DNA of 25,906 nucleotides from an uncultured Myxococcales bacterium (GTDB lineage: Bacteria; Myxococcota; UBA4151), in NCBI GenBank assembly GCA_964013405.1, contig CAXGWI010000036.1, positions 1-25,906 of the forward strand, given 5' to 3'. The notes under the pieces are model-generated. The model searched no databases. It was given only the letters and a program-made list of their open reading frames with translations, and was not told where the DNA came from. This document shows positions 277-17,508 of this stretch, piece by piece. Each line of letters opens with the position of its first letter. Within the stretch, counting starts at the first letter, position 1. The translations under genes were made by a program, and so were the position numbers.

Positions 277-2079
277 CTAGGCGTCCTCGAGTTCTACCTG
301 TCGTGCGTAGTAGCCACCCTGAGCCATTAACTCGGCGTGACTCCCCCGCTCCACCACCCGGCCCTTGGCCAACACGAGGATCTGGTGCGCACGACGTACC
401 GTGCCAAGTCGATGGGCTACCACCAACACGGTTCGACCCACCATCAAGCGCTCGAGCGCAGCCTGAACGGCCCGTTCCGCTTCCGAGTCGAGGGCGCTGG
501 TCGCCTCGTCGAGCAGGAGGATCGGCGCATCTTTCAACAGGGCCCTAGCGATCGCAATCCGTTGGCGCTGACCACCACTGAGCCGAACCCCTCGATCACC
601 CACTTGAGTCTCAAGCCCTTGGGGTAGTTCTTGGATAAAATCCCAGGCCTGGGCGGCCTGAGCGGCCTCGATGATCTCGGCCTCGGAGCTTTCCGGGGCT
701 GCGTAGGCGATGTTGGCCCGCACGGTATCGTGAAACAACACCACATCCTGGCTGACCACTGCGACCTGACGCCGCAGGCTCTGCTGGCTCAAGTGACGGA
801 GGTCCTGGCCATCGATGCGAATCGCGCCCTCTGTCACGTCGTAGAAGCGGGGCACCAGCTGCAACAGGGTCGACTTGCCGCAACCGCTCGGACCCACCAG
901 TGCGAAGGTCTCCCCCATGGGTACAGAAAAGTTCATCTCGCTGAGCACCGGCGGCAACAGGACCCCGTCGGACTCAGCATAAGCAAAGGCAACCCCCTCA
1001 AAGCTGAGGCTCTCATCCAAGCCTTGGAGTTCGACAGCGTCCTCAGCGTCCAGGACCTCGGCCTGGCGGTCAATGACCTCAAAGATGCGTTCGGAAGCGG
1101 CCATGCCGGTGGCGACAAAGGTGGAGATTCGACCGAGCTCCTTGATGGGGGCATAGATCAAAACGAGAGTGGCAAAGAAGCTGACGAAGAACTCCGGTGC
1201 CAGATAATCGGGATGGGCCTCCGGAAGGACCATCCGCCCCTGGGCATACCAAAGGACCGCCGCCAAACCGGCGACCCCGAGCAACTCGATCACCGGTGAA
1301 TAGGCGCCTCGGGCCAGAATGGAACGCCACATCACCCCCAGGAACTGCTGATGGGCCTGGCCAACACGGCTGCGCTCCCGCTCCTCGGACGCGCTGGCCT
1401 TGATCAACTCAATACCCGTCAGCCCTTGGGCGATCCGATCGGTCACAGCCCCGAGGGCATCGAGATACTCCCGGGCGATCCGGCGAATCGTCTTTAAAAA
1501 CAGGCTGATCGGCACCACGGCCAGGGGCACGGCCGCAAACGCGACCAGCGCCAACCACACGTCGAGAAGAAAGCATTGGAGAACCAGCGCGACGATGACG
1601 AGACTACTGCGCAAACCACTGGCCATGGCGTCCACCACCGCAAACTCCACTTGCACCACGTCCGTCGTAAACCGGCTCAGCAGATCACCGCCTCTGCGCC
1701 GATCGAAGAAGGCCTTCTCCTGGCCCAGCGTGGCCGCAAACAGTTGGTCGCGCAGATCGACAACCACATTCGATCCGATCCAACGCATCGTGATAAACTG
1801 CAGCCCATAGGCGATGCCCTTGATCACAACGATCGCGACCAACAACCACGCAATCCCCTTCGTGCCATGATCGGCGAGGAAACGGTTAAAGGGCTCAAAC
1901 TCCTGGGCCAGGATGTTGAAGCCCCGATCGCCACCGGTGATCAAATGGGAGAGCCCGGGCCCCAGCAAGAAGGCATAGGCTGCTGTGGTCAGCGCCAAGA
2001 TGACCATGGCGAAAATCGTGACCGGAAAAAGTCGTCGGTACGGCATGATCAGGCGCAATAAGCGCCGGTAGCTGCTCAT
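277..2079 (-). CDS. msbA: Lipid A export ABC transporter, fused TMD+NBD (MsbA-like)
   Basis: N-terminal TM domain; Walker A GPSGCGKS; signature LSGGQRQR; Walker B LLLDEATSALD; H-loop VAHRL; located in an operon with lpxB. Start moved to ATG 2079, giving an ATGA overlap with the upstream stop. Confidence 0.85.
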   Translation of the reverse strand: MSSYRRLLRLIMPYRRLFPVTIFAMVILALTTAAYAFLLGPGLSHLITGGDRGFNILAQEFEPFNRFLADHGTKGIAWLLVAIVVIKGIAYGLQFITMRWIGSNVVVDLRDQLFAATLGQEKAFFDRRRGGDLLSRFTTDVVQVEFAVVDAMASGLRSSLVIVALVLQCFLLDVWLALVAFAAVPLAVVPISLFLKTIRRIAREYLDALGAVTDRIAQGLTGIELIKASASEERERSRVGQAHQQFLGVMWRSILARGAYSPVIELLGVAGLAAVLWYAQGRMVLPEAHPDYLAPEFFVSFFATLVLIYAPIKELGRISTFVATGMAASERIFEVIDRQAEVLDAEDAVELQGLDESLSFEGVAFAYAESDGVLLPPVLSEMNFSVPMGETFALVGPSGCGKSTLLQLVPRFYDVTEGAIRIDGQDLRHLSQQSLRRQVAVVSQDVVLFHDTVRANIAYAAPESSEAEIIEAAQAAQAWDFIQELPQGLETQVGDRGVRLSGGQRQRIAIARALLKDAPILLLDEATSALDSEAERAVQAALERLMVGRTVLVVAHRLGTVRRAHQILVLAKGRVVERGSHAELMAQGGYYARQVELEDA

Positions 2080-2780
2080 GAGCGAACCTTGCTCCGAAGG
2101 CCCCATACGCTCATCATCGCTTCCACGACGATCCCCGAACTCATCTTGGATTCACCGGCCACCCGATCGGGAAAAACGATAGGGAACTCCTTGACCTGAA
2201 AGCCAGCGGACAGGGCCCGGTACTTCATTTCGATTTGAAACACGTAGCCCTTCGCTGCCACCGAGCTCAGATCCAACTGTCGCAGGACCTCTGCTCGCCA
2301 ACCGACAAAGCCGGCCGTGAGGTCCCGGATACGAACGCCCAGCAAGGTGCGCGCATAAAGAGAGCCGCCCCGGCTGATCATACGACGGACGAGCCCCCAG
2401 TTCTCGACCCCACCGCCCGGGACCCAACGGGAGCCAACGGCTACGTCCGCTGCTTCTAGCGTTGCCAGCATGTCGGGTAGGTAACGGGGCCGATGGGAAA
2501 AGTCCGCGTCCATCTCAATGAGCAAATCGTAATCGCGGGCGAGGCCCCATTCGAAACCCGCGAGGTACGCAGGCCCCAAGCCGCCCTTGCCTTCCCGGGC
2601 GAGGAGGTGGAGCCGGGGTTCGGTCGCGGCCATTTCGGCCACGCGGTCGCCGGTACCATCAGGGCTGTTGTCATCGATGATGAGGAGATCCACCGGCGCG
2701 GCAGCGAGGACGGCCGGAATGATCTGATCGATATTCTCCATCTCATTGTAGGTGGGCATGCAGACCAGCGGACGACTCAT
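2076..2780 (-). CDS. Polyprenol-monophosphomannose synthase / DPM1-like GT2 glycosyltransferase
   Basis: Motifs PTYNE, IDDNSPDGTG, GLGPAYLAGF, EMDADFSH, GSRWVPGG, DLTAGF, GYVFQIEM and FPDRVAGESKMS are characteristic of the Ppm1/DPM1-like family. Confidence 0.9.
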   Translation of the reverse strand: MSRPLVCMPTYNEMENIDQIIPAVLAAAPVDLLIIDDNSPDGTGDRVAEMAATEPRLHLLAREGKGGLGPAYLAGFEWGLARDYDLLIEMDADFSHRPRYLPDMLATLEAADVAVGSRWVPGGGVENWGLVRRMISRGGSLYARTLLGVRIRDLTAGFVGWRAEVLRQLDLSSVAAKGYVFQIEMKYRALSAGFQVKEFPIVFPDRVAGESKMSSGIVVEAMMSVWGLRSKVRS

Positions 2781-3364
2781 CAGTCACTCGTTTCCGTTTG
2801 TTCGGTGTGCATCGATGCCCGACCGAGGGCTGCGATGGCGAGCAGAAAACCAAGAGTCAGACCCGCCAGGACGTCTGTGGGCCAATGGGCCCCGATCGCA
2901 ATGCGGCTCCAGCCGACGATCAGAGGCAGGCCAAGCCCCACAAGAGCAGCGGCTCCGGAGCGACGTTGTCGCCACAGTGCGAGGCCAAAAACACCGAAGA
3001 CATAAGCCCCGGTGGCCGTGTGCCCCGATGGCATCGCTCTGGCCTTGAGTTCACCGCCGGGCAGCGAGGCCACTTCGTCGAGCACTGCACCCGGCCGCGG
3101 CCGATCGATACCGAACTTCAGCCCCTGAACCACGACCAACAAAACCAGCCCGCCTCCAATCACGCGAGCGATCGGGATGCGCTGCCAGGCCTTGAACAGG
3201 ACCATACCCAGAACGAAAACCGGCAGACAAAGCCAGGGCTCGCCCAAGTACGTCAACCATTGAGCCACTCCATCGCCCCGACCCGAAAGTGCCCGCAGGC
3301 CCGAAAGATCCGGTGGGAAAACGCCAGGAACAGCCCCGAGGAGGTGCAGTGATGGGTGCGTCAT
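2780..3364 (-). CDS. PAP2-family membrane phosphatase (LpxE/LpxF/BcrC/PgpB-like)
   Basis: C1 KFGIDRPRP, C2 PSGH, C3 SRIAIGAHWPTD and several TM helices. Start moved to ATG 3364 (ATGA overlap with the lpxB stop); the longer track ORF overlaps lpxB. Confidence 0.88.
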   Translation of the reverse strand: MTHPSLHLLGAVPGVFPPDLSGLRALSGRGDGVAQWLTYLGEPWLCLPVFVLGMVLFKAWQRIPIARVIGGGLVLLVVVQGLKFGIDRPRPGAVLDEVASLPGGELKARAMPSGHTATGAYVFGVFGLALWRQRRSGAAALVGLGLPLIVGWSRIAIGAHWPTDVLAGLTLGFLLAIAALGRASMHTEQTETSD

Positions 3365-4437
3365 TGCTGACCAAGGACCGCCTGAGCAACGGCCTCCATC
3401 CCCACCCCACCGGCCATGGCCTGTCGCAGGCGCCTGGACGCATCGAGCTGGGCGACCCGCTCCGGATGGTCTGCAGTGGCCAGGCGGTTTGCCACCTGCA
3501 CGATCGCCTCCGGCTTGGCCTCGCCTTGAAACATCTCTGGCCAGGGGCCCGGGCCTAAGACCAGGTTGGGCGGGGCCGTCTGTTCGAGGCGAACCAGGGA
3601 ACGACCAATGACCCAAGTCACCAGCGGTGCGCGAAACACCACGACCTGCGGTGTACCGATCAAAGCGGTCTCCAACGTCGCTGTGCCGTTACAGACGAGG
3701 GCCACCTTCGCACCGGCGACAGCGGCTTGCACGGTGTCGACCTGTTCCACGGGAAGGCCGGCAAAGCAGGCGCCGACCGCGGCCGCATCAAGAGTCGGTG
3801 CGACGGGCACTCGAAAGGAGGCCGTCGGGTCAGTTTGGAGCATGTGCTCCGCACAGCTTTTGAGCAGAGGCCCCACATAGTCCAACTCGGCCCGGCGACT
3901 TCCAGGCAGCAGCGCGATCGGCCCGTCCACACGAGATGGTGTTGGCTGACAATCATCAGCGATCGGATTGCCCAAATACTGACAATCCACCCCCTGTTCC
4001 CGCCACCAATCAGCCTCGAAGGGAAGGATCACGAACAGCTCGTCATAGGCTTTGCGGGCACTGGCGAGTCGCCAACTCCCCCAAGCCCACAGCTTGGGGG
4101 GAATGAAGCCGACCACACGAATACCGTGGCGACGAAGGGCCTTACCCAGCGGTAGGTGGAAGCCGGAGTAATCCACAAGGACCGCAGTCTTGACCCCCCG
4201 CTCTAGGGCGGCATTCACCAATGCGGTTCGTTGTTTCCTGAGGGTCCGCACCGTACCGATCAGGCGAGAGAAGCCGAAGGCCCCCTCGGCCCGGCAAATG
4301 GCTTCGACGCCTGCTGCCGCCAACTCAGGTCCGATTTTTCCCAAACAGGCCTGGTCGGGGCCGAGGGCGCGGACCAGTGCAGCGGCCTGGCGATCGCCGC
4401 TGGCTTCGCCGACGCTGATCAGGATCGGTGATTTCAT
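3361..4437 (-). CDS. lpxB: Lipid-A-disaccharide synthase
   Basis: Motifs ISVGEASGD, PKLWAW, ILPFE, GNP, LLPGSRRAE, GTATLE and PN near the C-terminus; length 358 aa is typical. Confidence 0.92.
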   Translation of the reverse strand: MKSPILISVGEASGDRQAAALVRALGPDQACLGKIGPELAAAGVEAICRAEGAFGFSRLIGTVRTLRKQRTALVNAALERGVKTAVLVDYSGFHLPLGKALRRHGIRVVGFIPPKLWAWGSWRLASARKAYDELFVILPFEADWWREQGVDCQYLGNPIADDCQPTPSRVDGPIALLPGSRRAELDYVGPLLKSCAEHMLQTDPTASFRVPVAPTLDAAAVGACFAGLPVEQVDTVQAAVAGAKVALVCNGTATLETALIGTPQVVVFRAPLVTWVIGRSLVRLEQTAPPNLVLGPGPWPEMFQGEAKPEAIVQVANRLATADHPERVAQLDASRRLRQAMAGGVGMEAVAQAVLGQQ

Positions 4438-4446
4438 CGTCGAGAA

Positions 4447-5340
4447 CTAGCGCCCAAGCGCCAAGGAAACAACGCTCAGACCCCCGAGGGCCAACCCGGC
4501 TCCCCACAGGACCCTGGCTCGTCCTTCTGCGGCCGAGAGCGTGTCCACTGTCTCCCGCGTGATCGGCCGGGCGTCGAAAGCATCCTGAGCTTGGCTCAAG
4601 GTCGCATAGCTGCTGCCGATCAAACCGACTCCGCCCAAACCCATGCCAAACCCCACCGACCGGAGCCAGGGATGCCCATTAGGCTGCGCAGCTGGTCCTT
4701 GAGACCCCGCCTTGGCAACCGTCGTGCCAGGTCCTGGCTTCGACGCTGGAGCCGACTTCTTTTGCCCCTTATTCTTCGCCAGAGCAGAGAGCACCTGATT
4801 GGCGAGCACCACCGCCTTGTCCGGTCTTAAAACGCCCTGAGGCAAAACTGTGCGTTGCACGAAATGCTCAACACCATCGGGCGCGATGCCGCGAATCACC
4901 GCAAGCGGCTCCCGCTCAACCTGTCGCAAAGTGACCACGAGCACCAAATCAAGAGGGATCAGTTGGCCTAAGGCCTGGACACATTCCCGTCGGCCGCAGC
5001 CCAACAAACGGGCCTGGTCCTCAAGGGGCAACACGCTGCGCAGGTTCGTCGGCTGGAGCACGGGCGACACCTTCTTCGTGCTCTCCAAAGCTTTTGCGAG
5101 TCGCTTGAGAAAACGGCGACCGGTTTTGGCTGGAACCCCGGCCCCTAATTGGGGCTCCATAATCGCAACCCGGGGTTTGTCGATCCGGTGTGGTGCGCCG
5201 ATCACCAACTCCTTCTTGGCCGGTGCCTCATCAAGACCGACGAGGGGCGGCAAACCGCTGTCTTGGGCAACAACGAGACCTGGGCCCATCAACAGAAGGC
5301 CCGGCAGGATGATGGCTGGCAGCACCTGGCTCATGATCAC
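4447..5340 (-). CDS. Hypothetical exported/membrane protein with a myxobacterial CxxxxC alpha/beta domain and C-terminal hydrophobic helices
   Basis: Signal-peptide-like N-terminus ending LVVA-QD; LLGCGRRECVQALGQLIPLDLVLV segment; Lys/Pro linker; two Gly-rich hydrophobic C-terminal segments. SD-like GAGG upstream; start is GTG 5340 or ATG 5334. Confidence 0.65.
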   Translation of the reverse strand: MIMSQVLPAIILPGLLLMGPGLVVAQDSGLPPLVGLDEAPAKKELVIGAPHRIDKPRVAIMEPQLGAGVPAKTGRRFLKRLAKALESTKKVSPVLQPTNLRSVLPLEDQARLLGCGRRECVQALGQLIPLDLVLVVTLRQVEREPLAVIRGIAPDGVEHFVQRTVLPQGVLRPDKAVVLANQVLSALAKNKGQKKSAPASKPGPGTTVAKAGSQGPAAQPNGHPWLRSVGFGMGLGGVGLIGSSYATLSQAQDAFDARPITRETVDTLSAAEGRARVLWGAGLALGGLSVVSLALGR

Positions 5341-5343
5341 TAT

Positions 5344-6369
5344 CTACCTCGTTGTGGGCTCCGGTCCAACCGGTCCATTGACGGGGGGGCGAGCCAAGGC
5401 TTCTGCGACGGCTTCAAGGGTCTGAAATTGGAGCGCTGGTCGCTCGTTGACCAAATGATGATCAGCCCCTTCGATGCGAAGGAACGTCGCCTGGGGCAGC
5501 CGCCTTCGAAGGACATCGAGATTATAGGACCAATGCACAGTGCCATCGACCGTCCCCTGAATCACAAGCAAGCCCTTATCCAAGGGCCCTCCGCGCACAA
5601 AACCGGTCTGCCATGCCTTGAGCGCATTCAACCAACCAAAGGGTATCTTACGCTGTTGCAATGGGTCCTGCTCCCGCAAGAACTTCATGAATTGCTCGTC
5701 GCTGGAGCAGCGACGAAAACGTCTTGGGACCGAGCCAACAAAGAGCGACACGACCGCTTTGGCGACGTTCGACTTACGGAAATGAGCCCAGCGAACCAAG
5801 GGGGCGAGAAGCACCACATTACCGTCTAGGGTACGGCCCTGGTCTAACTCGTTGAGCAATATGCTCGCCCCGGTGCTGTGGCCTACAAAATGAGTGGGCC
5901 CAGACACCGCCGGGAGTCGAGCGACGGCCTGGCGAACAGCTCGAAAGGCCTTCGCATAGTCGGCCATCGCCCGCAGATCTGCTCGGGGTCCCGTACTCAG
6001 TCCATGGCCCGGCAAATCGTAGAGAACGACCCGATACCCCTCCCTTAAGAGTCGCTTCACCAAGGGACCATAGCTTCCCATGTGGTCGAGGTAACCATGA
6101 ACCACGATGACCGTTCCCGAGGGAGCTGCCCGGGGCCTAAAAACCTGAACAGCGAGCCGTTGGTCAGCCACCGGAACCGACCCCAATCGCCAAGAGGCCT
6201 TGATCGAATCGAGACCATAAAAGCCGAGATAGGCTTGAGCCCGAGACGGCTTGAGTCCTTCATGCAATGGGGGCAGAACACGAGCCATGGCCGCAAAACG
6301 CCCGGCCCACTGCTGCCGCTCCACCGCTGGACTCAACAGCACCAAAGACAAGCCCGTTGTGATCAGCAA
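5344..6369 (-). CDS. Alpha/beta hydrolase, lysophospholipase/monoacylglycerol lipase-like
   Basis: VVHGYLDH oxyanion region, YDLPGHGLS, nucleophile GHSTG, acid QGTVD and His in ADHHL. TTG start overlaps the upstream stop; the exact start is uncertain. Confidence 0.85.
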   Translation of the reverse strand: MLITTGLSLVLLSPAVERQQWAGRFAAMARVLPPLHEGLKPSRAQAYLGFYGLDSIKASWRLGSVPVADQRLAVQVFRPRAAPSGTVIVVHGYLDHMGSYGPLVKRLLREGYRVVLYDLPGHGLSTGPRADLRAMADYAKAFRAVRQAVARLPAVSGPTHFVGHSTGASILLNELDQGRTLDGNVVLLAPLVRWAHFRKSNVAKAVVSLFVGSVPRRFRRCSSDEQFMKFLREQDPLQQRKIPFGWLNALKAWQTGFVRGGPLDKGLLVIQGTVDGTVHWSYNLDVLRRRLPQATFLRIEGADHHLVNERPALQFQTLEAVAEALARPPVNGPVGPEPTTR

Positions 6370-6803
6370 AGCGCCAACCGCCGCTTCATTTCCCGGTGGG
6401 GAATGCCCAACTCAAGGTAGTCTTCAGAGCTCGCAGTGTAGCCCAGTCGGGTATAGAAAGGCGCCGCGGTCACCCTCGCATGGAGAACCACCTCAACGAT
6501 GCCCTTCTCCACCAAGGCCTCCTCCAGGCCCCGAACGAGGGCCCGACCCAAACCTTGCCCCTGACAATCGGCGGCCACAGCCATCTGATACAAGCGACCA
6601 GATCGACCCCTTGGGTGGAACAAAACGCAACCAACCAACCGGTCGCCGTCCACGGCCACAAAGTGAAGACTCTCTCGTTCGAATGGGAACTCGTTGGGAT
6701 CAAAGGATCGCCCAATCGGTTGGCGAAGGACGGCATCACGCAGTTTCTTTTCCGCCTCATACCAGTCACCATCCGGTTCGATGAATCGAAATTCCAGAGC
6801 CAT
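6363..6803 (-). CDS. GNAT family N-acetyltransferase (ElaA/YjcF-like)
   Basis: Acetyl-CoA motif A QMAVAADCQGQGLGRAL; LHARVTAAPFYTRLGY; GIPHREM. Start set to ATG 6803 with GAGG upstream. Confidence 0.88.
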   Translation of the reverse strand: MALEFRFIEPDGDWYEAEKKLRDAVLRQPIGRSFDPNEFPFERESLHFVAVDGDRLVGCVLFHPRGRSGRLYQMAVAADCQGQGLGRALVRGLEEALVEKGIVEVVLHARVTAAPFYTRLGYTASSEDYLELGIPHREMKRRLALC

Positions 6804-6883
6804 TGTGTTGCGCCTCGCTGCGAGAATAGTCGGCTCTCTCAAGGCTCGCCAGCCCCTTTGGTTTCGGGCATGAGGAAAGGGCC

Positions 6884-7444
6884 ATGGATGTGTATCGATC
6901 CCTTTTCGATGGTGCCGTCAAGGTGCTGCAACCTCGTCGTTTCGAAGACGAACGGGGCTATTTTATGGAATCTTGGCGAGAGGAGACCCTGGCGGAGGCC
7001 CTTGGTATGGATCTCGCCTTTGTTCAGGACAATGAGAGCCTGTCGGCCCGCGGTGTCCTGAGGGGTCTCCACTACCAATGGGATCCACCCCAAGGAAAGC
7101 TCGTGCGCTGTGCCCACGGTAAGGTCCTCGATGTTGCCGTGGATTTGCGCCGGTCGTCACCCACCCTTGGACAGGCAGAGGTCATCGAATTGAGCGCTGA
7201 CAACCGGCTCCAGATCTGGATTCCACCGGGCTTCGCTCACGGTTTCCTCAGCCTGACAGACGATGCCCTGGTGTTGTACAAATGTACGGCCCGCTGGTCA
7301 GCGGAAGGGGAGAGTGGGCTTTGGCCCCTCGATCCAGAACTCAACATCAACTGGCCCTGCGCTGCCGATGAGATCACCCTGTCGCCGAAGGACGCCGAGG
7401 CCAAAACGCTCGCTGACTATCTGGCGGATCCAGTCTTCGACTAG
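6884..7444 (+). CDS. rfbC: dTDP-4-dehydrorhamnose 3,5-epimerase
   Basis: Motifs FEDERGYFMES, FVQDNESLS, RGLHYQ, QGKLVRC, DVAVDLR, IPPGFAHGF and LYKCT; purine-rich SD upstream. Confidence 0.95.
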   Translation: MDVYRSLFDGAVKVLQPRRFEDERGYFMESWREETLAEALGMDLAFVQDNESLSARGVLRGLHYQWDPPQGKLVRCAHGKVLDVAVDLRRSSPTLGQAEVIELSADNRLQIWIPPGFAHGFLSLTDDALVLYKCTARWSAEGESGLWPLDPELNINWPCAADEITLSPKDAEAKTLADYLADPVFD

Positions 7445-9693
7445 TCGAGTCGAGGCCGGCAGCAGAACACCGCCATCCGAGCGTTGGTAAAGTCCCGACG
7501 CCGACCAAAGTTGTCGAGGCTGCCCTCGGCATAAAAACCATTGTCCCAGCCGCACCAGTTCTGATCCCCGATCATGAGCGTCTGCTGGTTATTGCTGTAG
7601 AGGAACTTACCGGCCGTTGAGGTTGGCTCGCCATTCTCGTGATTCATCGGAAAGCACGGGTTACCACAAAAGTTCTGGTTGCTCGCGCCGCGTAAATTGT
7701 CGGGCCAGGCATAGAGCCAACGCCCGGAACAGCGCTGAGCGACCGCCTCCCCCCAAGTCGATTCTGTTCCCCCCGGATCCTGACCTCGTGGATACCTCGC
7801 TTCCCATTCGGCGAGGCTACAGACGTGCCAACCCTCCGCACAGGCCTGATCGACCGTGTCGCGGCGGAACTCGCCGCCGCAGAGGGCAGCATCCCGACTC
7901 GCCGGCGTAAAGGCCGGGTGCTCTGCTTCCCGCTCTCGACAGCCATTGGGTGCTGGTTCGCTCTGGCAATCGGCTGCGCACAGGTCACCATCTTCCACAT
8001 TCCCATCATCGCAGACTTCATGACCCGGATCGCCAAACAGAAGCTCCTCTGCCTCACCCTCGACCATGCGGTAACGCCGAACCACTCCATCGCCACAGCG
8101 GGCGATCGTACAGTCATTGGTGCACTCATCGGCGTCCTCTTGGTTGCCGTCGTCACAGCCCTCATACCCTTCGTCGCCAGGTTCAAGGTCGCCATTTCGA
8201 GCGAAACCGTCGCCACAAACGGCCCGCTGACAGGCTGCGGTACAACGGTCGTTGGAGAGCCGGTCACCGTCGTCACAGGCTTCATAACCCGCCTCGCCAG
8301 GTGCGAGTTCAACCCGCTCCCCCTGTAGCCAGGCATAGCGGCGCACGACATCATCACCGCACACAGCTGTTTGGCATGCATTGGTGCAGGCATCCGCGTC
8401 TTCATCGTTGCCGTCATCACAGGTTTCTGCACCGACGGCGACGACGCCATCGCCACAGACGGCCTCTTCGCAGTTGTTCAGACAGGCATCCGCGGGGTCA
8501 TCGTTGCCGTCGTCACAATCCTCGTTGCCAAACCACTCAAAGCCATCGCCACAGCGGGCCGCTCGACAGCCCTCAACACAGGCATCCACATTGCTATCGT
8601 TCGCATCATCGCATTCTTCGTATCCGACTTCACCGATCCGTATGTTCGTGCGGAGGATCCCATCCCCGCAGCGGGCTTCTCGGCATTCGTTCGTACAGTC
8701 GTTACCGCCGTCTCGGTCACCATCATCGCAGGTTTCTTCCCCCACCCAGATGTGGCCGTCACCACAGCGAGCCACCATGCAGTCCGTCGTACAACCGTCG
8801 TCGTTGGAGTCGTTGCCATCGTCACAGCCCTCGTGTGCGGGGTCCTCAACGGCCACATCTGTGCGCCGCACCCCATCGCCACAGCGGGCCGGGCGGCACA
8901 CATTAGTACAAGCATCTCCTTCGTTGAGATTGCCATCATCACAACTCTCTACCCCCTCGCGGAGGTAACCATCGCCGCAACTGGCGGCCACGCAAGTGCT
9001 CAGGCACCCATCCGTATCCGAGTCGTTGCCATCATCGCAGACCTCACCGGCCTGCACTGCCCCATCGCCACATCGAGCATCCGCACAGTCGTTGCATGCG
9101 TCCGTTGGATCGTCGTTGCCATCGTCACATTCTTCCACCCCTGCTTGGACGAAGCGGTCACCACAACGGGCTTCGCGGCAGTTCTCCACACAGGCGTCGT
9201 CGTTGTCTTCGTTGCCATCGTCGCAGACTTCCGATGGAATGGTGCCGGGCTCCGTCTCGACCGTTCGCAGGATGCCATCGCCGCACCGAGCCAGCAGGCA
9301 AACGTTGGTACATGCATCGCCAGCTTCTTCGTTGCCGTCATCACAGGCCTCAAAGCCGAGCTCGCCCTCGGCCCGGTCGAGACGCTGGATCCCGTCGCCG
9401 CATCGGGCTTCAACGCAATTGGCTAAACAGCCATCCTGCTCATCTGAATTGCCATCATCACAGGCCTCGTAGCCATCATCACCGGGGCTCAGATCCTGCC
9501 GAGTGATCGCATCGCCACAACTGGCTGCCTTGCAATCGCTCAAACAGCCGTCGGTTGGCGAACTGTTGCCATCATCGCAGGCCTCGCCGGCATCCAGGAC
9601 ACCGTCACCACAGCGAGTCAGGTCGACTGGGTCATCACCGGGGCAGGCCGCCAGCAGTAGCCAAGGCAGGGCCAGCAAGAGACGATGGGCCAT
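7441..9693 (-). CDS. Lipoprotein with 15 Myxococcus Cys-rich (DUF4215-type) repeats and a C-terminal Cys-containing globular domain
   Basis: Lipobox LLAA-C17; 15 counted copies of CGDG..E.CDDGN....D.C...C; strong SD GGAGGT 5 nt before the ATG. Confidence 0.88.
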   Translation of the reverse strand: MAHRLLLALPWLLLAACPGDDPVDLTRCGDGVLDAGEACDDGNSSPTDGCLSDCKAASCGDAITRQDLSPGDDGYEACDDGNSDEQDGCLANCVEARCGDGIQRLDRAEGELGFEACDDGNEEAGDACTNVCLLARCGDGILRTVETEPGTIPSEVCDDGNEDNDDACVENCREARCGDRFVQAGVEECDDGNDDPTDACNDCADARCGDGAVQAGEVCDDGNDSDTDGCLSTCVAASCGDGYLREGVESCDDGNLNEGDACTNVCRPARCGDGVRRTDVAVEDPAHEGCDDGNDSNDDGCTTDCMVARCGDGHIWVGEETCDDGDRDGGNDCTNECREARCGDGILRTNIRIGEVGYEECDDANDSNVDACVEGCRAARCGDGFEWFGNEDCDDGNDDPADACLNNCEEAVCGDGVVAVGAETCDDGNDEDADACTNACQTAVCGDDVVRRYAWLQGERVELAPGEAGYEACDDGDRLSNDRCTAACQRAVCGDGFARNGDLEPGDEGYEGCDDGNQEDADECTNDCTIARCGDGVVRRYRMVEGEAEELLFGDPGHEVCDDGNVEDGDLCAADCQSEPAPNGCREREAEHPAFTPASRDAALCGGEFRRDTVDQACAEGWHVCSLAEWEARYPRGQDPGGTESTWGEAVAQRCSGRWLYAWPDNLRGASNQNFCGNPCFPMNHENGEPTSTAGKFLYSNNQQTLMIGDQNWCGWDNGFYAEGSLDNFGRRRDFTNARMAVFCCRPRLD
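7966..9612 (-). repeat. Coding tandem repeat: 15 Cys/Asp-rich units of 31-48 aa
   Basis: Counted in the translation. The DNA shows recurring gttgccatcatc/gtcgtcaca-like words on the + strand. Confidence 0.9.
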
Positions 9694-9732: not shown

Positions 9733-12078
9733 TCAGGCGAACAACAACTTCCGGCCCCGAAGTGCCATCAGAACGAGCAGTACCCAGGCCAGGCCGCCGG
9801 CATCGGAACCGGAGCAGCCACAACCCTCGGGGGTGGCTGCGCCCGACGGTACAGCGTCTGGCTCATCGGTGGTTTCGGGTACGCAGGAGCGGGCCAAATC
9901 GTCATCCCACTCCACGGCCACATTGAAGTCGCCGAGACGAGCCCCACCCGTCTTTGTCCCTAGACTCACATAAAGAGGACCGCCACAGGCCGTATCGAGG
10001 CCATCGACCTCTAAGAGGCCACCTTCCCCCTGAACCACAACGGGGTAAAGACGAGCGTCATCGTTGTAGGACACCCGTCCATCGTCGTAATTGAATTCGA
10101 TCGGCGCACCATCTCGAAGCACGGCGGTCAGTTCGGGGGCTTCCTGCTGTTGCCCCATGAAGTCACCGCCACCGGCCATCGAGAACCGCAACTGCACGCT
10201 GACGGTACCCGGCGGCATCATGATTCGGCCCTGGAAGAAAGTGGGTGCGTGCTCCCCTTCCCGAACGCCGACTTGTTGGGCGCCAGCTAAGTGGACTTCT
10301 TCGGGGCCTTGGGAGACCATTTCCGGCCGTTGCCCCTCGTGCTCCACCAGCTTCAACAAGTCCAACACCCGCTCACAGTCGATCAGGCCCGCTTGGGTCA
10401 TATGCTCGATGAAGGACTCCGCCCGCGCTACATCCAATTGCAGTTCCAACTCCGCGGCGATGGCGTCGGCAGCATCGGTGTAGCCGGCCATCTGGGTCGG
10501 AATCGCCGCCATGCCCATCACCACAGCGGTGTCGAAGAGGACCTGGTCATCGTCATCAAGACCGGAGCGAAAGGCCCATAGCTGACTCGCCAGAGGGATC
10601 CCATCGTGGTGGACTTCACCAATGAGATCATCAGGGCAGCGCTTTGGCACGCTATGGTCTCTGATGCCTTCGGCACCACCGACAAACTGTCCCATCTGGG
10701 GAGAGCCAGCCATCACCATGGACATATAGTCAGCGAAGCCCTCGTGCAGAGAACCAGGTGTCAGGTGCGTCCCCCATCGATCCTGATGAGCACCCGCAAG
10801 CCGCGAGGTCCGCGAGATCGCGGCGTGGGTGAGTTCGTGGTACAGCACGTCAGCATCGTAGACGAAGGGTCCCACCGTCCCATGGAACATGAGGACCGAG
10901 TCGAAATCCCGCTCCATGGGAAACGGCGTCTGCTCTGAACTCTCGCCGATCGCGGGGATGAACACCGCGTTATCCATGGGCATGAAACAGCTGATCTCTT
11001 GCGACAGCATGTTGATGCAGCCGGCTGCACTCAAAGCCTGAATCCCCTCCTGGCCACCGAAGGGAATGGAAGGCACCATGAAGTTGACCGTGATGGCGAA
11101 ACCGGCCCCGCCACCGGAGAGGCTGAATCCCTCCAAGCCATGTTGCCGAAGAAATTCGAGAAACAGGTGGGCGTGATAGTAGCCCTGGGTCTCCGCGAAT
11201 GAATCCCGGTGCGGCGCATCAGCCAGGGTCACATCCGCTGGCAGCGTCCGAGTCATCAAACCAGGCTGCGTCGGCATCCAGTTGGTGACGCGGGCATTGT
11301 ATAGAAAGTCTCCCGCCTCGTCTGGTCGGGCTTCGGGGCGCTCGTCACAAAAGGGCATCGTGACGTTAAACTGACCGAAGGGCATCGTGACCTTGATGGG
11401 CCCGTTGCCCGGCTCGCAGCCCTCTTCGATACAGCAGGCGCGAATCTGAAATTCTTCGCTCTGCAACACCCGGCCCGCGGGTGCAGGCTCTAGATCGACT
11501 GTGATCACATCGGTGAGATCGCGACCGACGCCCGGGCTGCGTTCAAACACATGGGCCTGGGCTTTTTTGACGAGGTTACGGCGGGCCAGGATCTCCCCTG
11601 TGACACCGTCCACTCGAAACTCTAAGAGCTCGTAGGGCATGGGTGAACTCAAGTGAATGACCCAGGTCGGTGCCAGCCCCTTTGCGACCACACGCCAGGC
11701 CTGACGGGCCGACCAGTTCCCCGGCTGCATTGGATCGAGGTGAGGAAACTGTGGACCGCGTTCGATCGTTGTCCTGAGGGCCTCGTCCCGATCCACGCGA
11801 AAGGCTGCGATCCCTTGGACCCGATGCAAAGGCTTCACCTCTTTTTGGTAGACCAGACCTCGGTCATGATCCCAGCGACGAATCAGCTCATGATCAAGGA
11901 CCATCAGGCCTTGGTAGACCCGGCGAAACCGATAGACTGCGCCGTTTGTTACCTGCGTTTCTCGCTCAAGACGGTAGCCGACCGGGGGCTGGTCGATTTG
12001 GGTCACATCCATGCCAGGCTCGGCACTCGTGGCACCACCGACTGTGAATAGGCTCGCAAAAGTGATCGTTAGCAGCAC
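9733..12078 (-). CDS. Secreted zinc metallopeptidase (M36/M4-like) with propeptide and MYXO-CTERM-like sorting tail
   Basis: Signal peptide; FTP/PepSY-like propeptide (YRFRRVYQGLMV, FRVDGVTGEIL); HELTH; GSLHEGFADY third ligand; GEVHHDG; C-terminal GCGCSGS-hydrophobic-RGRK. SD GGAGG before the GTG. Confidence 0.85.
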   Translation of the reverse strand: MLLTITFASLFTVGGATSAEPGMDVTQIDQPPVGYRLERETQVTNGAVYRFRRVYQGLMVLDHELIRRWDHDRGLVYQKEVKPLHRVQGIAAFRVDRDEALRTTIERGPQFPHLDPMQPGNWSARQAWRVVAKGLAPTWVIHLSSPMPYELLEFRVDGVTGEILARRNLVKKAQAHVFERSPGVGRDLTDVITVDLEPAPAGRVLQSEEFQIRACCIEEGCEPGNGPIKVTMPFGQFNVTMPFCDERPEARPDEAGDFLYNARVTNWMPTQPGLMTRTLPADVTLADAPHRDSFAETQGYYHAHLFLEFLRQHGLEGFSLSGGGAGFAITVNFMVPSIPFGGQEGIQALSAAGCINMLSQEISCFMPMDNAVFIPAIGESSEQTPFPMERDFDSVLMFHGTVGPFVYDADVLYHELTHAAISRTSRLAGAHQDRWGTHLTPGSLHEGFADYMSMVMAGSPQMGQFVGGAEGIRDHSVPKRCPDDLIGEVHHDGIPLASQLWAFRSGLDDDDQVLFDTAVVMGMAAIPTQMAGYTDAADAIAAELELQLDVARAESFIEHMTQAGLIDCERVLDLLKLVEHEGQRPEMVSQGPEEVHLAGAQQVGVREGEHAPTFFQGRIMMPPGTVSVQLRFSMAGGGDFMGQQQEAPELTAVLRDGAPIEFNYDDGRVSYNDDARLYPVVVQGEGGLLEVDGLDTACGGPLYVSLGTKTGGARLGDFNVAVEWDDDLARSCVPETTDEPDAVPSGAATPEGCGCSGSDAGGLAWVLLVLMALRGRKLLFA

Positions 12079-14577: not shown

Positions 14578-17508
14578 GTGCCCCTCCTCCTCGCCATCTG
14601 CTTCTTCGCCTCCGGCGCAACAGGCCTCGTTTTTGAGGTGATCTGGTCCAGACTTCTTGGCCAAGTCTTCGGCGCCACAACCCCGGCGGTGGCGACCACG
14701 TTGTCCTGCTTTATGGGTGGGCTCGCCATCGGGGCCCACCTGATCGGCAAGGTGATGCACCGCATCAAAAGGCCAGCGCTCTGGTATGCCGGCTTTGAAG
14801 CGTGCATCGGCCTCTACGCATTGGCGATCCCGACCCTGTTGGATCTGGCCATCACCGTCCAGCGAACGGCCTGGCCCGCCGATGACAGCCGCTTCATCGT
14901 CTACTCCCTCGTACGCCTCGCTGTGGTGGCAGCGATTCTGCTGCCGCCCTCGGCCTTTATGGGCGCAACACTTCCTCTCTTGGCTGAAGCGATCGCCCGC
15001 TCGGGCTGGGGTCCGGGCAAAACCGTCGGCATGCTCTACGGGCTCAACACCCTCGGCGCCGTTGTGGGCGCCGGCGCTGTCGGCTTCTTCCTCTTGCCCT
15101 GGCTCGGTCTCAATCTGACCAACCAACTCGCCGCTGGAACCGACATCGTTCTGGCCGCACTCCTCGTCGCGCTTCTACCAAAGTTTGGCCAGGATTCGTC
15201 GGCCTCCGAAGCACCACCGCTTGAAGTGGAGGCACCGGTCCCGCAAGAAGACGAGCCATCGGGCATCCTCGGCGGTCGGGCCCGCTTACTCATTGCGGTC
15301 GTCGCCGTCTCCGGCGGAATCTCCATGGCCTTACAGGTCCTTTGGACCCGCGGCCTCTCCATGGTCCTGGGCGCATCCACCTACGCATTTACCACCATCT
15401 TGGTCGTGTTCCTCACCGGCCTTGCAGTGGGCTCTGCTGTGGCAAGTTTGACGGCGGATCGAGACCCTGCGCCGACCCGGCGGCTGGGTATCCTTCTCGT
15501 CCTCGCCGGCATCTTTGGGTTCATGGGGACGCGGGCGATCGATCAAATGCCCCATTGGCTCCAAAGTTTCGTCGTGGACCCAGAACTCACGACCCTCGGC
15601 TTAAACACGGTCCATCTCAGTTTCTGCAGTCTCACCATGTTGCCCGCGACCCTTCTGCTCGGTGCGGTCTTTCCCTATGTCGTGCGCGGCCTCCGGCCCG
15701 ACGCAGGCCTGGGCGCGACCGTCGGCGAGGCCTACGCCGCCAACACCATTGGGGCCATCGTCGGCTCCGCCGGGGCCGGCTTTGTTGTGATTCCCCTTGT
15801 CGGCATCTACACGGGCCTGTGCCTGGGTCACACCTTGCACATACTCCTCGGCGTCCTATTGATCGTCCGGGAACAAGCCTCCGGGACCACGCGGGAATCT
15901 CGCCTCTCCCACGGCTTTCTCGCCCTGGCTTTGGCCGGTCTGATCTGGCTGGTGCCGCCCTGGGACGTCTCTCGCTGGAGCCTGGGGATGTTCCGGGTCT
16001 CCGTCGCCCGTGTTTTCGGCGATGAGGCTGCGCAAATCTTCGGCCGTCTACTGTATCACCGCGATGGCCTCGCAACCACGGTCACCGTGGAACGCAGTGA
16101 CGATGTCACCCTCTTGAAAGTGAACGGGAAAGTGGACGCGTCAAGTCACGGCGATATGCCAACCCAGGTTCTCAGTGGCCTCCTCCCCCTGGTCCTTCAT
16201 GGTCAAGCAGAGCAGGTGGCTATCATCGGCTGGGGCAGCGGGGTCACGGCCGGCGCAACCCTGTCGATGCCTGTCAAACGGGTGAAGATGATCGAGATTG
16301 AAGAAGCCGTGGTTGAAGCGGGTCGCTTCTTTGCTGATGTGAATCGCTCCCCAGAAACCGATGCGCGCATGCAAATCATCTACGACGACGGACGTAACGT
16401 CATGCACAGCAGCGATGAAACCTTCGACGTCATTATTAGTGAGCCGAGTAATCCCTGGATGTCCGGCGCTGCTGCTCTCTTCACCGAGGAGTTCTTTCAG
16501 GTCTTAAAAAGTCGGCTCAAACCCGGTGGTGTTAGCCTCCAGTGGATTCAACTCTATGAACTGAGCCCAAAGGCGATCAAAGCCCTGCTCCGAACCTACG
16601 CCTCAGTCTTCGAGGAAATTCTCGTCTTTTCGGCCCATCCGACCAGCAATGATATCTTTCTGGTCGGCTCCTCCAAGGAACTTAAACTCAACCGTGACCA
16701 TCTACTGACGGCCATGTCGTCGCCGGATCGGATGACCTGGTTTCAAGCGGCCAAACTCCCGGAACCCGTGGACTTATTACCTCGACTGATCTTCGGGCGG
16801 GACGAGATCATGGCCTGGGTTGGGGATGGCCCACTCAACACCGATGACAACGGATTGGTTGAGTTCCTGGGCCCGGTCGACCTCCTTCATTACGCCGACA
16901 GCAGCGCTGAACTCCCCTTTCTCGACATCCTCGATGGACGCCGCCAGGCGATGGTCGAAAAGTACACCCGAGGATGGGCGTCCGGTGGCCGATCCATGGC
17001 CTGGGGAATGGCCCGGGCCGGGCGCTACGAAGATGCACGATCGATGGTTGCAGGCGGGGAAGACCCAGATCTGATTTGGGTCCTCGACCGTATGGAGGAG
17101 TCGGCCAAGGTGTCGATCTTGGATGAAGGGCTGAGCGAAACAGATCCCGACTATCGCCGGGTCGCCGAAGCCATGCTCTACGAGGGGCCGGAAGCCGCTG
17201 AGCAATTGCTTATGGACGAGGAGGGCTTGGCAAACCGCTCCCCCGGCCACCAACTGCTCGCCGGCTACATCGAGTTTCATATGGAAGACCTCTCCGCGGC
17301 CATCACACTGCTGCAGCGGGCGGCCCGCGACCAAGCCTATCGAGAAGGGATGCCAGCGGTGGACTACTACCTGGCCCGGGCGTTGGTGGAATGGGGCGAA
17401 CCGGCGGAAGGCTTAGAAGTCATGCTTCGCCTTGGACGGCGCCTGCAGCGCGCAGGCCAGCGGGATCAGGGCAACTGGATGCGAGGGTCCTCGCCCCGCG
17501 GCCGGTAG
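14578..17508 (+). CDS. Fused multi-pass membrane / spermidine-synthase-like SAM-dependent transferase with C-terminal TPR-like helices
   Basis: FFASGATGLVFEVIWSR, MGATLP and LYGLNTLGA motifs duplicated in two membrane halves; IIGWGSGVT; IEIEEAV; DDGRN; FDVIISEPSNPW; NTDDN; TPR-like tail (YYLARAL). Confidence 0.88.
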   Translation: MPLLLAICFFASGATGLVFEVIWSRLLGQVFGATTPAVATTLSCFMGGLAIGAHLIGKVMHRIKRPALWYAGFEACIGLYALAIPTLLDLAITVQRTAWPADDSRFIVYSLVRLAVVAAILLPPSAFMGATLPLLAEAIARSGWGPGKTVGMLYGLNTLGAVVGAGAVGFFLLPWLGLNLTNQLAAGTDIVLAALLVALLPKFGQDSSASEAPPLEVEAPVPQEDEPSGILGGRARLLIAVVAVSGGISMALQVLWTRGLSMVLGASTYAFTTILVVFLTGLAVGSAVASLTADRDPAPTRRLGILLVLAGIFGFMGTRAIDQMPHWLQSFVVDPELTTLGLNTVHLSFCSLTMLPATLLLGAVFPYVVRGLRPDAGLGATVGEAYAANTIGAIVGSAGAGFVVIPLVGIYTGLCLGHTLHILLGVLLIVREQASGTTRESRLSHGFLALALAGLIWLVPPWDVSRWSLGMFRVSVARVFGDEAAQIFGRLLYHRDGLATTVTVERSDDVTLLKVNGKVDASSHGDMPTQVLSGLLPLVLHGQAEQVAIIGWGSGVTAGATLSMPVKRVKMIEIEEAVVEAGRFFADVNRSPETDARMQIIYDDGRNVMHSSDETFDVIISEPSNPWMSGAAALFTEEFFQVLKSRLKPGGVSLQWIQLYELSPKAIKALLRTYASVFEEILVFSAHPTSNDIFLVGSSKELKLNRDHLLTAMSSPDRMTWFQAAKLPEPVDLLPRLIFGRDEIMAWVGDGPLNTDDNGLVEFLGPVDLLHYADSSAELPFLDILDGRRQAMVEKYTRGWASGGRSMAWGMARAGRYEDARSMVAGGEDPDLIWVLDRMEESAKVSILDEGLSETDPDYRRVAEAMLYEGPEAAEQLLMDEEGLANRSPGHQLLAGYIEFHMEDLSAAITLLQRAARDQAYREGMPAVDYYLARALVEWGEPAEGLEVMLRLGRRLQRAGQRDQGNWMRGSSPRGR

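What the first reader, a model, noticed from the sequence alone, without database searches (positions are those of the whole stretch)
277..4437. lpxB-PAP2-polyprenol-P-mannose synthase-msbA: candidate pathway for replacing lipid A phosphate with a sugar
Seen: the four genes are chained by stop/start overlaps (ATGA, TGATG, ATGA). Established: LpxE/LpxF are PAP2 lipid A phosphatases acting after MsbA flipping; polyprenol-P-sugars are donors for periplasmic lipid A glycosylation; Bdellovibrio bacteriovorus lipid A carries mannose in place of phosphates. Inference: this organism may dephosphorylate lipid A and add a hexose to give neutral lipid A. The required GT-C transferase is not in this window.
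Basis: partly seen in the sequence, partly recalled or inferred. Interest (0 to 1): 0.7.

Follow-up and report, generated by a model that had tools for sequence, protein, structure and literature searches.

The report
Myxobacterial lipid A phosphate-trimming operon
Four chained genes in a myxobacterium build and export the outer-membrane lipid A, likely strip a phosphate from it and likely load mannose on a lipid carrier, but the enzyme that would attach that mannose to lipid A, found beside these genes in many relatives, is missing from this genome assembly.

Summary
The operon is real: lpxB, a PAP2 phosphatase, a DPM1/Ppm1-type GT2 and msbA, chained by ATGA/TGATG/ATGA overlaps in a Myxococcota genome. 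The link is phylum-wide: the GT2 lies within 5 kb downstream of lpxB in 66 of 79 genomes holding both, and this PAP2 clade sits directly upstream of the GT2 in 10 of 10 genomes. An ArnT-fold GT-C clade occurs only in genomes with lpxB (62 of 92, versus 0 of 29), often beside lpxB-GT2, and in 26 of 26 Bdellovibrio-family genomes. This mirrors rhizobial LpxE/RgtE/RgtF, likely with mannose. But this genome (94% complete) and its congener lack that GT-C; its own GT-Cs and the GT2 persist in myxobacteria that lost lipid A genes. Best reading: LpxE-like dephosphorylation of lipid A, with the mannose donor spent mostly elsewhere; neutral mannosyl lipid A in this organism is a minority reading. Sequence cannot separate LpxE from a C55-PP phosphatase. 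The scan proposed Bdellovibrio candidates earlier on other DNA (e1-9812656).

The parts
3361..4437 (-). lpxB, lipid-A-disaccharide synthase (358 aa), only copy in the assembly
   Evidence: Pfam PF02684 E 1.9e-59; TIGR00215 182.7 bits, just under the 190.25 cut-off; single phmmer hit in genome
2780..3364 (-). PAP2 lipid phosphatase (194 aa), LpxE/YodM-type fold, candidate lipid A phosphatase
   Evidence: K83-X6-R90-P91, P112-S-G-H115, S153-R154-X5-H160-X3-D164 intact; AF2 model pLDDT 85.7, VIA-align Z 18.1 to Aquifex LpxE 6ebu, 16.7 to YodM 5jki, 10.1-12.2 to PgpB
2076..2780 (-). GT2 polyprenol-phosphate-mannose synthase of the DPM1/Ppm1 type (234 aa, catalytic domain only)
   Evidence: Profile scores 163.7 bits on P. 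furiosus DPMS 5mlz versus 48 on ArnC and 36 on GtrB; DPMS catalytic residues kept; close homologs annotated polyprenol monophosphomannose synthase
277..2079 (-). msbA, lipid A flippase (600 aa; start at 2079 by the ATGA overlap)
   Evidence: TIGR02203 best model, E 3.4e-155, below cut-off; same position in relatives

Best explanation
The four genes form a conserved Myxococcota lipid A operon in which LpxB builds the disaccharide, MsbA flips it, the PAP2 likely removes a lipid A phosphate on the periplasmic face as LpxE does, and the GT2 likely makes polyprenol-phosphate-mannose, while the GT-C that would put the mannose on lipid A is absent from this assembly. Shown: gene identities, order, intact active-site motifs, phylum-wide linkage, and absence of the lipid-A-linked GT-C clade from this assembly. 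Inferred: the PAP2 acts on lipid A (probably the 1-phosphate, and probably on C55-PP too, as characterised LpxEs do); the GT2 uses GDP-mannose; in the ancestral module the donor fed an ArnT-fold GT-C that glycosylates lipid A/LPS; in this lineage that GT-C was lost, so the expected product is a mono-phosphorylated lipid A without mannose, and the donor is spent by the genome's other GT-Cs on non-lipid-A targets.
For: GT2 within 5 kb downstream of lpxB in 66 of 79 genomes with both, of 121 sampled. The PAP2 clade (over 116 bits) is in 10 of 121 genomes, all with lpxB and all directly upstream of the GT2; 3 of the 10 were not in the model. Natural deletion: G098 has lpxB-PAP2-GT2-msbA-lysS-lolE-lolD, whereas 4 examined family-f17 genomes have GT2-lysS-lolE-lolD with no lpxB or lpxC, and their GT2s nest with G098's (SH-aLRT 99): the PAP2 goes with the lipid A genes, the GT2 stays. 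The genome already has BacA and three other PAP2s. Short basic loops 57-67 and 131-138 put the catalytic motifs on the periplasmic side (predicted). ManC-type GDP-mannose pyrophosphorylase present. Lipid-A-linked GT-C absent: best score 39 bits against at least 334 for members, none in congener G001 or in G003, G004, G010; own PMT_2 GT-Cs fall outside the clade (98) and occur in 7 of 7 f17 genomes.
Against: Unrelated small PAP2s also rank LpxE first in the PDB (59, 77 and 36 bits), and NCBIfam's best hit is the undecaprenyl-diphosphatase SepP, far below cut-off, so substrate is not shown. In G008 and G028 the PAP2-GT2 pair sits away from lpxB, which fits a PAP2-GT2 partnership as well as a lipid A role. 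The PAP2 tree is poorly resolved. The assembly is 94% complete in 244 contigs, and same-family G002 has a copy of the GT-C. 17 of 17 family-f3 genomes have the GT-C but no PAP2 match at E<=1e-18, so phosphatase and transferase are not an obligate pair. Genomes are related, so the counts are not independent events.
Confidence: 0.45

Rival explanations
1. The full phosphate-to-mannose swap works in this organism: PAP2 dephosphorylates lipid A and a GT-C (one of the genome's other GT-Cs, or one lying in an assembly gap) transfers mannose from the GT2 product.
For: lpxB-GT2 linkage is kept in genomes lacking the lipid-A-linked GT-C (24 of 79 with lpxB and GT2 had no match at E<=1e-25), which suggests continued LPS use; the genome has at least four PMT_2-type GT-Cs including an ArnT-like one at C6:5300-7600; Francisella FlmF1/FlmK add a hexose to lipid A through a DPM-like synthase and an ArnT homologue (PMC2233673, passages).
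Against: The ArnT-like protein and the C1/C10 pair are in 7 of 7 lipid-A-less f17 genomes; two independent assemblies of the genus lack the lipid-A-linked clade; only one candidate phosphatase is in the operon and the PHP protein seen beside msbA elsewhere is absent.
Confidence: 0.2
2. The PAP2 is a carrier-lipid (C55-PP) or PGP phosphatase that supplies polyprenol phosphate to the GT2; the mannose goes to proteins or other glycolipids; the pair merely rides in an envelope operon and lipid A keeps both phosphates.
For: PAP2 directly precedes the GT2 in 10 of 10 genomes, in two of them away from lpxB; the GT2 family is common in monoderms and Bacteroidota, and only 3 of 80 top loci outside the close relatives lie by lpxB; GT2 retained in 9 of 29 lpxB-less genomes; Aquifex LpxE is faster on C55-PP than on Kdo2-lipid A (3.58 vs 2.04 umol/mg/min; PMC6581854, passages); a TPR-bearing membrane protein lies beside the pilin genes.
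Against: The PAP2 clade never occurs without lpxB (0 of 29) and is missing where lpxB and msbA were deleted around a retained GT2; BacA is present in 5 of 5 genomes tested.
Confidence: 0.25
3. The polyprenol-phosphate-mannose is used for late mannosylation of the LPS core rather than the lipid A backbone, with the PAP2 acting on lipid A independently.
For: Myxococcus xanthus core carries a non-stoichiometric Man(1-2)Man branch (PMC9535733, passages), and Myxococcaceae have lpxB-GT2 adjacent (L056, L058); rhizobial RgtA-C decorate the core from a polyprenol-P donor (recalled).
Against: No core structure is known for this lineage; cytoplasmic GT4 enzymes beside kdtA could make the branch; no transferase identified.
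Confidence: 0.1

Closest known systems
Rhizobial LpxE / RgtE / RgtF (and LpxF / RgtD) pathway, Mesorhizobium loti and Rhizobium leguminosarum
   Same: PAP2 phosphatase, GT2 polyprenol-P-sugar synthase and GT-C acting after flipping; lpxE, rgtF and rgtE are clustered in M. loti (PMC5644692 and PMC7795004, passages).
   Different: Sugar there is galacturonic acid; here the GT2 is a DPM1/Ppm1-type enzyme predicted to use GDP-mannose, the genes are welded to lpxB and msbA, and this genome lacks the linked GT-C. Orthology of the Myxococcota GT-C to RgtF/RgtD was not tested (no reference sequence obtainable).
Aquifex aeolicus LpxE (aq_1706, PDB 6EBU)
   Same: Best sequence and structure match; same tripartite motif and size.
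   Different: 22-24% identity; the rank is shared by unrelated small PAP2s; PSGH is intact here, PSGD there.
Dolichyl/polyprenyl-phosphate mannose synthases (P. furiosus DPMS 5MLZ; DPM1; actinobacterial Ppm1)
   Same: Equivalents of Tyr10, Glu12, Asp39, Gly68, Leu69, Asp89, Asp91, His94, Arg117, Arg131, Ser135, Gly158, Arg202, Lys208 are kept.
   Different: Gln93 is Ser95 and Phe177/Lys178 are not kept; no C-terminal membrane domain; no GtrA-like flippase found with a single-sequence query (weak test).
Francisella novicida FlmF1/FlmF2/FlmK
   Same: DPM-like synthase plus ArnT-like transferase add hexose or galactosamine to lipid A (PMC2233673, passages).
   Different: Not tied to lpxB/msbA; FlmF enzymes are described as PmrF/ArnC homologues, a class that scores only 46-48 bits against this GT2 profile.
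Bdellovibrio bacteriovorus mannose-substituted neutral lipid A
   Same: Structure known, genes not named in the 2026 review passage seen (PMC13689555); the same GT2 family and GT-C clade are in Bdellovibrio-family genomes.
   Different: There the GT2 is not beside lpxB (0 of 8 Bdellovibrionota loci), lpxB sits with a gnnA-like gene (5 of 5), and most genomes have two GT-C copies; this genome has neither gnnA nor the GT-C.

Membership tests
LpxE lipid A 1-phosphatase | PAP2 tripartite motif KX6RP / PSGH / SRX5HX3D | tested here: met
   invariant in 9 of 9 operon PAP2s
LpxE lipid A 1-phosphatase | Closer to LpxE than to C55-PP/PGP phosphatases | tested here: inconclusive
   LpxE ranks first but also for three control PAP2 sets; Foldseek E-values for LpxE and YodM tie
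LpxE lipid A 1-phosphatase | Passes curated LpxE model NF007159 | tested here: not met
   No hit at E<=0.001 for the window protein; G010 homologue 23.8 bits vs cut-off 177. Weak test: known LpxEs share only about 14-17% identity (PMC6581854)
LpxE lipid A 1-phosphatase | Active site on the periplasmic face | tested here: inconclusive
   Predicted only, from the AF2 helices and the positive-inside rule
LpxE lipid A 1-phosphatase | Removes the 1-phosphate of lipid A | not testable with these tools
   needs enzyme assay or MS
DPM1/Ppm1 polyprenol-P-mannose synthase | DAD motif, guanine-binding Asp, acceptor-phosphate Arg/Arg/Ser, acceptor-loop Arg/Lys, Gly at the GtrB Asp157 site | tested here: met
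   Gln93 and Lys178 equivalents differ
DPM1/Ppm1 polyprenol-P-mannose synthase | GDP-mannose supply in the genome | tested here: met
   GMP domain of TIGR01479 matched at E 1e-77, C12:12944-13957, below the full-length cut-off
DPM1/Ppm1 polyprenol-P-mannose synthase | Uses GDP-mannose rather than another NDP-sugar | not testable with these tools
   needs donor assay
LpxE/RgtE/RgtF-type phosphate-to-sugar replacement | Lipid-A-linked GT-C in the same genome | tested here: not met
   genome 94% complete
LpxE/RgtE/RgtF-type phosphate-to-sugar replacement | The phylum's lpxB-linked GT-C has an ArnT-like GT-C fold | tested here: met
   Foldseek best hits ArnT 5ezm/5f15, E 4.5e-7, model pLDDT 67; protein from relative G033, not from the window
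LpxE/RgtE/RgtF-type phosphate-to-sugar replacement | That GT-C is an orthologue of RgtF or RgtD | not tested
   no reference sequence from a tool; the motif resemblance is recalled
LpxE/RgtE/RgtF-type phosphate-to-sugar replacement | Native lipid A carries a sugar in place of phosphate | not testable with these tools
   no structure for this lineage found

The most novel reading that the evidence does not exclude
The lpxB-[PAP2]-GT2-[GT-C]-msbA module is the genetic signature of mannose-for-phosphate lipid A across much of Myxococcota, sharing its donor synthase and its ArnT-fold transferases with Bdellovibrio, whose two ancient GT-C paralogues would be the 1- and 4'-mannosyltransferases; a PHP-domain protein tied to msbA and to one of those paralogues would be a new class of lipid A phosphatase or its partner. 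This genome would be a reduced member of that family.
Probability: 0.35. Interest if true: 0.75.

Novelty: new variant of a known kind. Interest (0 to 1): 0.5.

Why it matters
Lipid A charge sets resistance to cationic peptides and immune visibility, and in bacterial predators a distinct lipid A may separate self from prey. The chemistry (phosphatase, lipid-linked sugar, GT-C) is known from rhizobia, but a mannose version welded to lpxB and msbA across a phylum was not found in my literature searches. It gives named, cloneable candidates in tractable hosts (Myxococcus, Anaeromyxobacter, Bdellovibrio) for the unassigned mannosyl-lipid A pathway. For this window alone the gain is smaller: a probable new LpxE-type phosphatase and evidence that the mannose donor has a second, lipid-A-independent job.

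Tried and rejected
PDB rank as proof of LpxE identity: rejected after controls. PAP2 phylogeny (76 rows, quick tree): the 12 GT2-linked PAP2s lie on one side of a weak branch (82) apart from this genome's three other PAP2s; unresolved, and no characterised LpxE/LpxF/BcrC could be included. TMEM260-like, TMTC and GT87 families: no match in this genome (the TMTC search rang in no control). ArnT-like C6 protein and C1/C10 pair as the lipid A transferase: disfavoured because present in lipid-A-less genomes; C178, C3, DUF2079 (C117) and C1:95448 candidates were not profiled. One tblastn step failed and was replaced by HMM searches. My first PAP2 HMM wrongly held a non-PAP2 (L049:7100-7753); its hit in L023 is an artefact and the row was dropped from A4. 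PHP protein as an active phosphatase in Bdellovibrio: doubtful, metal ligands degenerate in 5 of 5. Promoter/terminator scan uninformative. Brown et al. 2013 (rgtF) was not held; the M. xanthus LPS structure is in a figure that could not be read.
Full report
Observation. The window is contig C36 of a 3.9-Mb, 94%-complete assembly. Four intact genes run on the minus strand: lpxB 4437-3361, a PAP2 3364-2780, a GT2 2780-2076 and msbA 2079-277, joined by ATGA, TGATG and ATGA overlaps. Pfam and NCBIfam confirm the families; lpxB and msbA fall slightly under the curated cut-offs but are the best models. Overlaps of this kind make up 377 of 1972 co-directional pairs in this genome by a rough caller, so they mark an operon and no more. 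The organism is a Myxococcota member: a 90%-identical GT2 is labelled Myxococcales and named Myxococcaceae loci share the layout of same-phylum genomes. The rest of the Raetz pathway is present: lpxA, lpxD, kdtA, lpxC, lpxK.

The PAP2. All three catalytic motifs are intact. Aquifex LpxE is the best match by sequence (36.7 bits single, 106.5 profile, against 72.6 for YodM and 51.6 for PgpB) and by structure (Z 18.1, rmsd 2.6, 159 aligned; YodM 16.7). This is not diagnostic: two other PAP2 sets and this genome's C9 paralogue also rank LpxE first, and characterised LpxEs act on C55-PP as well (PMC6581854, passages). Predicted topology puts the motifs on the periplasmic side. Context carries the argument. 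A clade scoring over 116 bits occurs in 10 of 121 phylum genomes; all have lpxB and all lie directly upstream of the GT2; 7 were in the model, 3 were not. In 8 the pair is in the lpxB operon, in 2 (G008, G028) it is elsewhere. The genome has BacA and three other PAP2s.

The GT2. Its profile scores 163.7 bits on P. furiosus DPM synthase against 48 for ArnC and 36 for GtrB. Fourteen residues named in the DPMS paper for nucleotide, metal, mannose, acceptor phosphate and loop closure are kept; Gln93 and Phe177/Lys178 are not (PMC5526996, passages). A ManC-type enzyme is present. GDP-mannose is therefore likely but unproven.

Conservation. Of 121 genomes (this one included, drawn evenly from the phylum, at least 90% complete), 92 have lpxB, 88 the GT2, 79 both; in 66 the GT2 is within 5 kb downstream on the same strand, 54 of them adjacent and 7 with one small gene, the PAP2, between. 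Outside the phylum the GT2 family is widespread, including monoderms, and only 3 of 80 top loci lie by lpxB (two Myxococcaceae, one Nitrospinota). Related genomes are not independent, but the linkage spans most families sampled.

The missing transferase. In many relatives a PMT_2 GT-C follows lpxB or the GT2. Its model folds like ArnT. It is found in 62 of 121 genomes, all with lpxB, and in none of the 29 without; 27 of the 62 have it within 5.5 kb of lpxB (I entered coordinates for 29 and judged the other 33 unlinked). The 29 negatives are few lineages (13 are one family of small genomes, 7 are family f17). The clade is also in 26 of 26 genomes of the family of a Bdellovibrio sp. genome, twice in 20, as two old paralogue groups, which matches the two mannoses reported for B. 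bacteriovorus lipid A (seen only as cited in PMC13689555 and PMC7795004). This genome lacks the clade: weak hits only, best 39 bits with a 27-member profile whose members score at least 334; the copy from same-family G002 finds nothing in G000, G001, G003, G004 or G010 (no positive control in that call). Its own PMT_2 proteins branch outside, and the ArnT-like C6 protein and the C1/C10 pair are in 7 of 7 f17 genomes. Of 79 genomes with lpxB and GT2, 24 had no match to the clade; some may be misses, since at most 13 candidates per genome were scored. Seven genomes have the GT-C without the GT2.

A natural deletion. Family f17 has no lpxB (0 of 7) and no lpxC (0 of 4 tested) yet keeps the GT2 (7 of 7). 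G098 has lpxB-PAP2-GT2-msbA-lysS-lolE-lolD; three of the four f17 loci examined have the GT2 directly before lysS-lolE-lolD on the same strand and so does the fourth (L202-L205), and their GT2s nest with those of G098, G024 and G031 (99, quick tree of 48 rows). The simplest reading is that lpxB, the PAP2 and msbA were lost around a GT2 that was still needed; that the f17 ancestor had the PAP2 is inferred. This supports a lipid A role for the PAP2 and a second role for the GT2.

Mechanism. Shown: operon, motifs, linkage, absence of the linked GT-C. Inferred: LpxB and LpxK/KdtA make Kdo-lipid A, MsbA flips it, the PAP2 removes a phosphate (1-position by analogy with LpxE) and may recycle C55-PP; the GT2 makes polyprenol-P-mannose on the cytoplasmic face; how it is flipped is unknown. 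In relatives with the GT-C the mannose would go to lipid A or inner LPS; here it likely goes to other GT-C targets (0.45). Rivals: full swap by another or unassembled GT-C (0.2); carrier-lipid phosphatase with non-lipid-A mannosylation (0.25); core mannosylation as suggested by the Man-Man branch of M. xanthus (PMC9535733, passages; 0.1). I recall that M. xanthus lipid A was reported with a 1-phosphate and no mannose; no call confirmed this.

Comparison and novelty. The logic is that of LpxE/RgtE/RgtF (PMC5644692, PMC7795004, passages) and FlmF/FlmK (PMC2233673, passages). Membership of this genome in that kind fails on the transferase; 'works like LpxE' remains open. I found no paper describing the lpxB-linked mannose synthase module or naming Bdellovibrio mannosylation genes in eight searches of an open-access library; subscription papers are mostly not held. 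Verdict: new variant of a known kind, interest 0.5; the phylum-wide and Bdellovibrio reading has probability 0.35 and would merit 0.75.

Noticed in passing
L035, L036, L038, L039, L041, L045, L190, L197, L199, L268 (after msbA); L254/L257, L255/L259, L251/L260, L285, L287, L292, L293, L294 (after the GT-C): A membrane-anchored PHP-domain protein follows msbA in Myxococcota lipid A clusters and follows the short GT-C paralogue in 8 Bdellovibrionota loci. Strong matches (E<=1e-60) in 43 of 121 genomes, all with lpxB. All ten checked metal ligands are intact in 6 of 10 Myxococcota members and degenerate in 5 of 5 Bdellovibrionota members. Absent from this genome. Candidate non-PAP2 lipid A phosphatase.
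   Followed up: partly
family of G126 (Bdellovibrio sp.), L248-L294: The lipid-A-linked GT-C clade is in 26 of 26 genomes, two copies in 20, forming two old paralogue clades. In L286 a GT-C abuts a PAP2-like gene.
   Followed up: partly
L036, L038, L040, L043, L190, L191, L195, L199: A MarC membrane protein follows the GT2 in several families and sits between lpxB and msbA in G043, which lacks the GT2; possible lipid-handling role, untested.
   Followed up: no
L042, L046-L048, L198, L263, L275, L315-L319: A GnnA-like dehydrogenase precedes lpxB in family f3 and the Bdellovibrio family, and precedes the GT-C cluster in Nitrospinota G130, suggesting diaminoglucose lipid A there; not found in this genome.
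   Followed up: partly
G000:C12:11573-15327: bacA lies two genes upstream of manC and a phosphomannomutase-like ORF (the latter named from a recalled motif), a second link between carrier recycling and mannose supply.
   Followed up: no
G000:C2:84095-86299 (L170:4096-6300): TPR-bearing polytopic membrane protein between pilD-like and pilA-like genes; resembles TMTC-type O-mannosyltransferases by eye but the Pfam TMTC model did not match.
   Followed up: partly
window 4447-6842 (-): Upstream on the same strand: GNAT acetyltransferase, alpha/beta hydrolase (phospholipase BipL model 244 bits, cut-off 450) and a 297-aa protein without Pfam whose Atlas neighbours are CsgG/LpoB-like; order kept only in congener G001, while G002/G003 have lysS-lolE-lolD-bamA there.
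   Followed up: partly
L182:5117-6274 (G098): lpxB of G098 has an in-frame TAG after residue 267: assembly error or broken gene.
   Followed up: no
window 9733-12078 (-), 7441-9693 (-), 21667-25233 (+), 14578-17508 (+): 781-aa protein with an HExxH motif and a Cys-containing hydrophobic tail (metalloprotease-like, MYXO-CTERM-like from recall, no Pfam); 750-aa DUF4215 cysteine-rich repeat protein; 1188-aa protein without Pfam; 976-aa membrane protein fused to a spermidine synthase domain.
   Followed up: no
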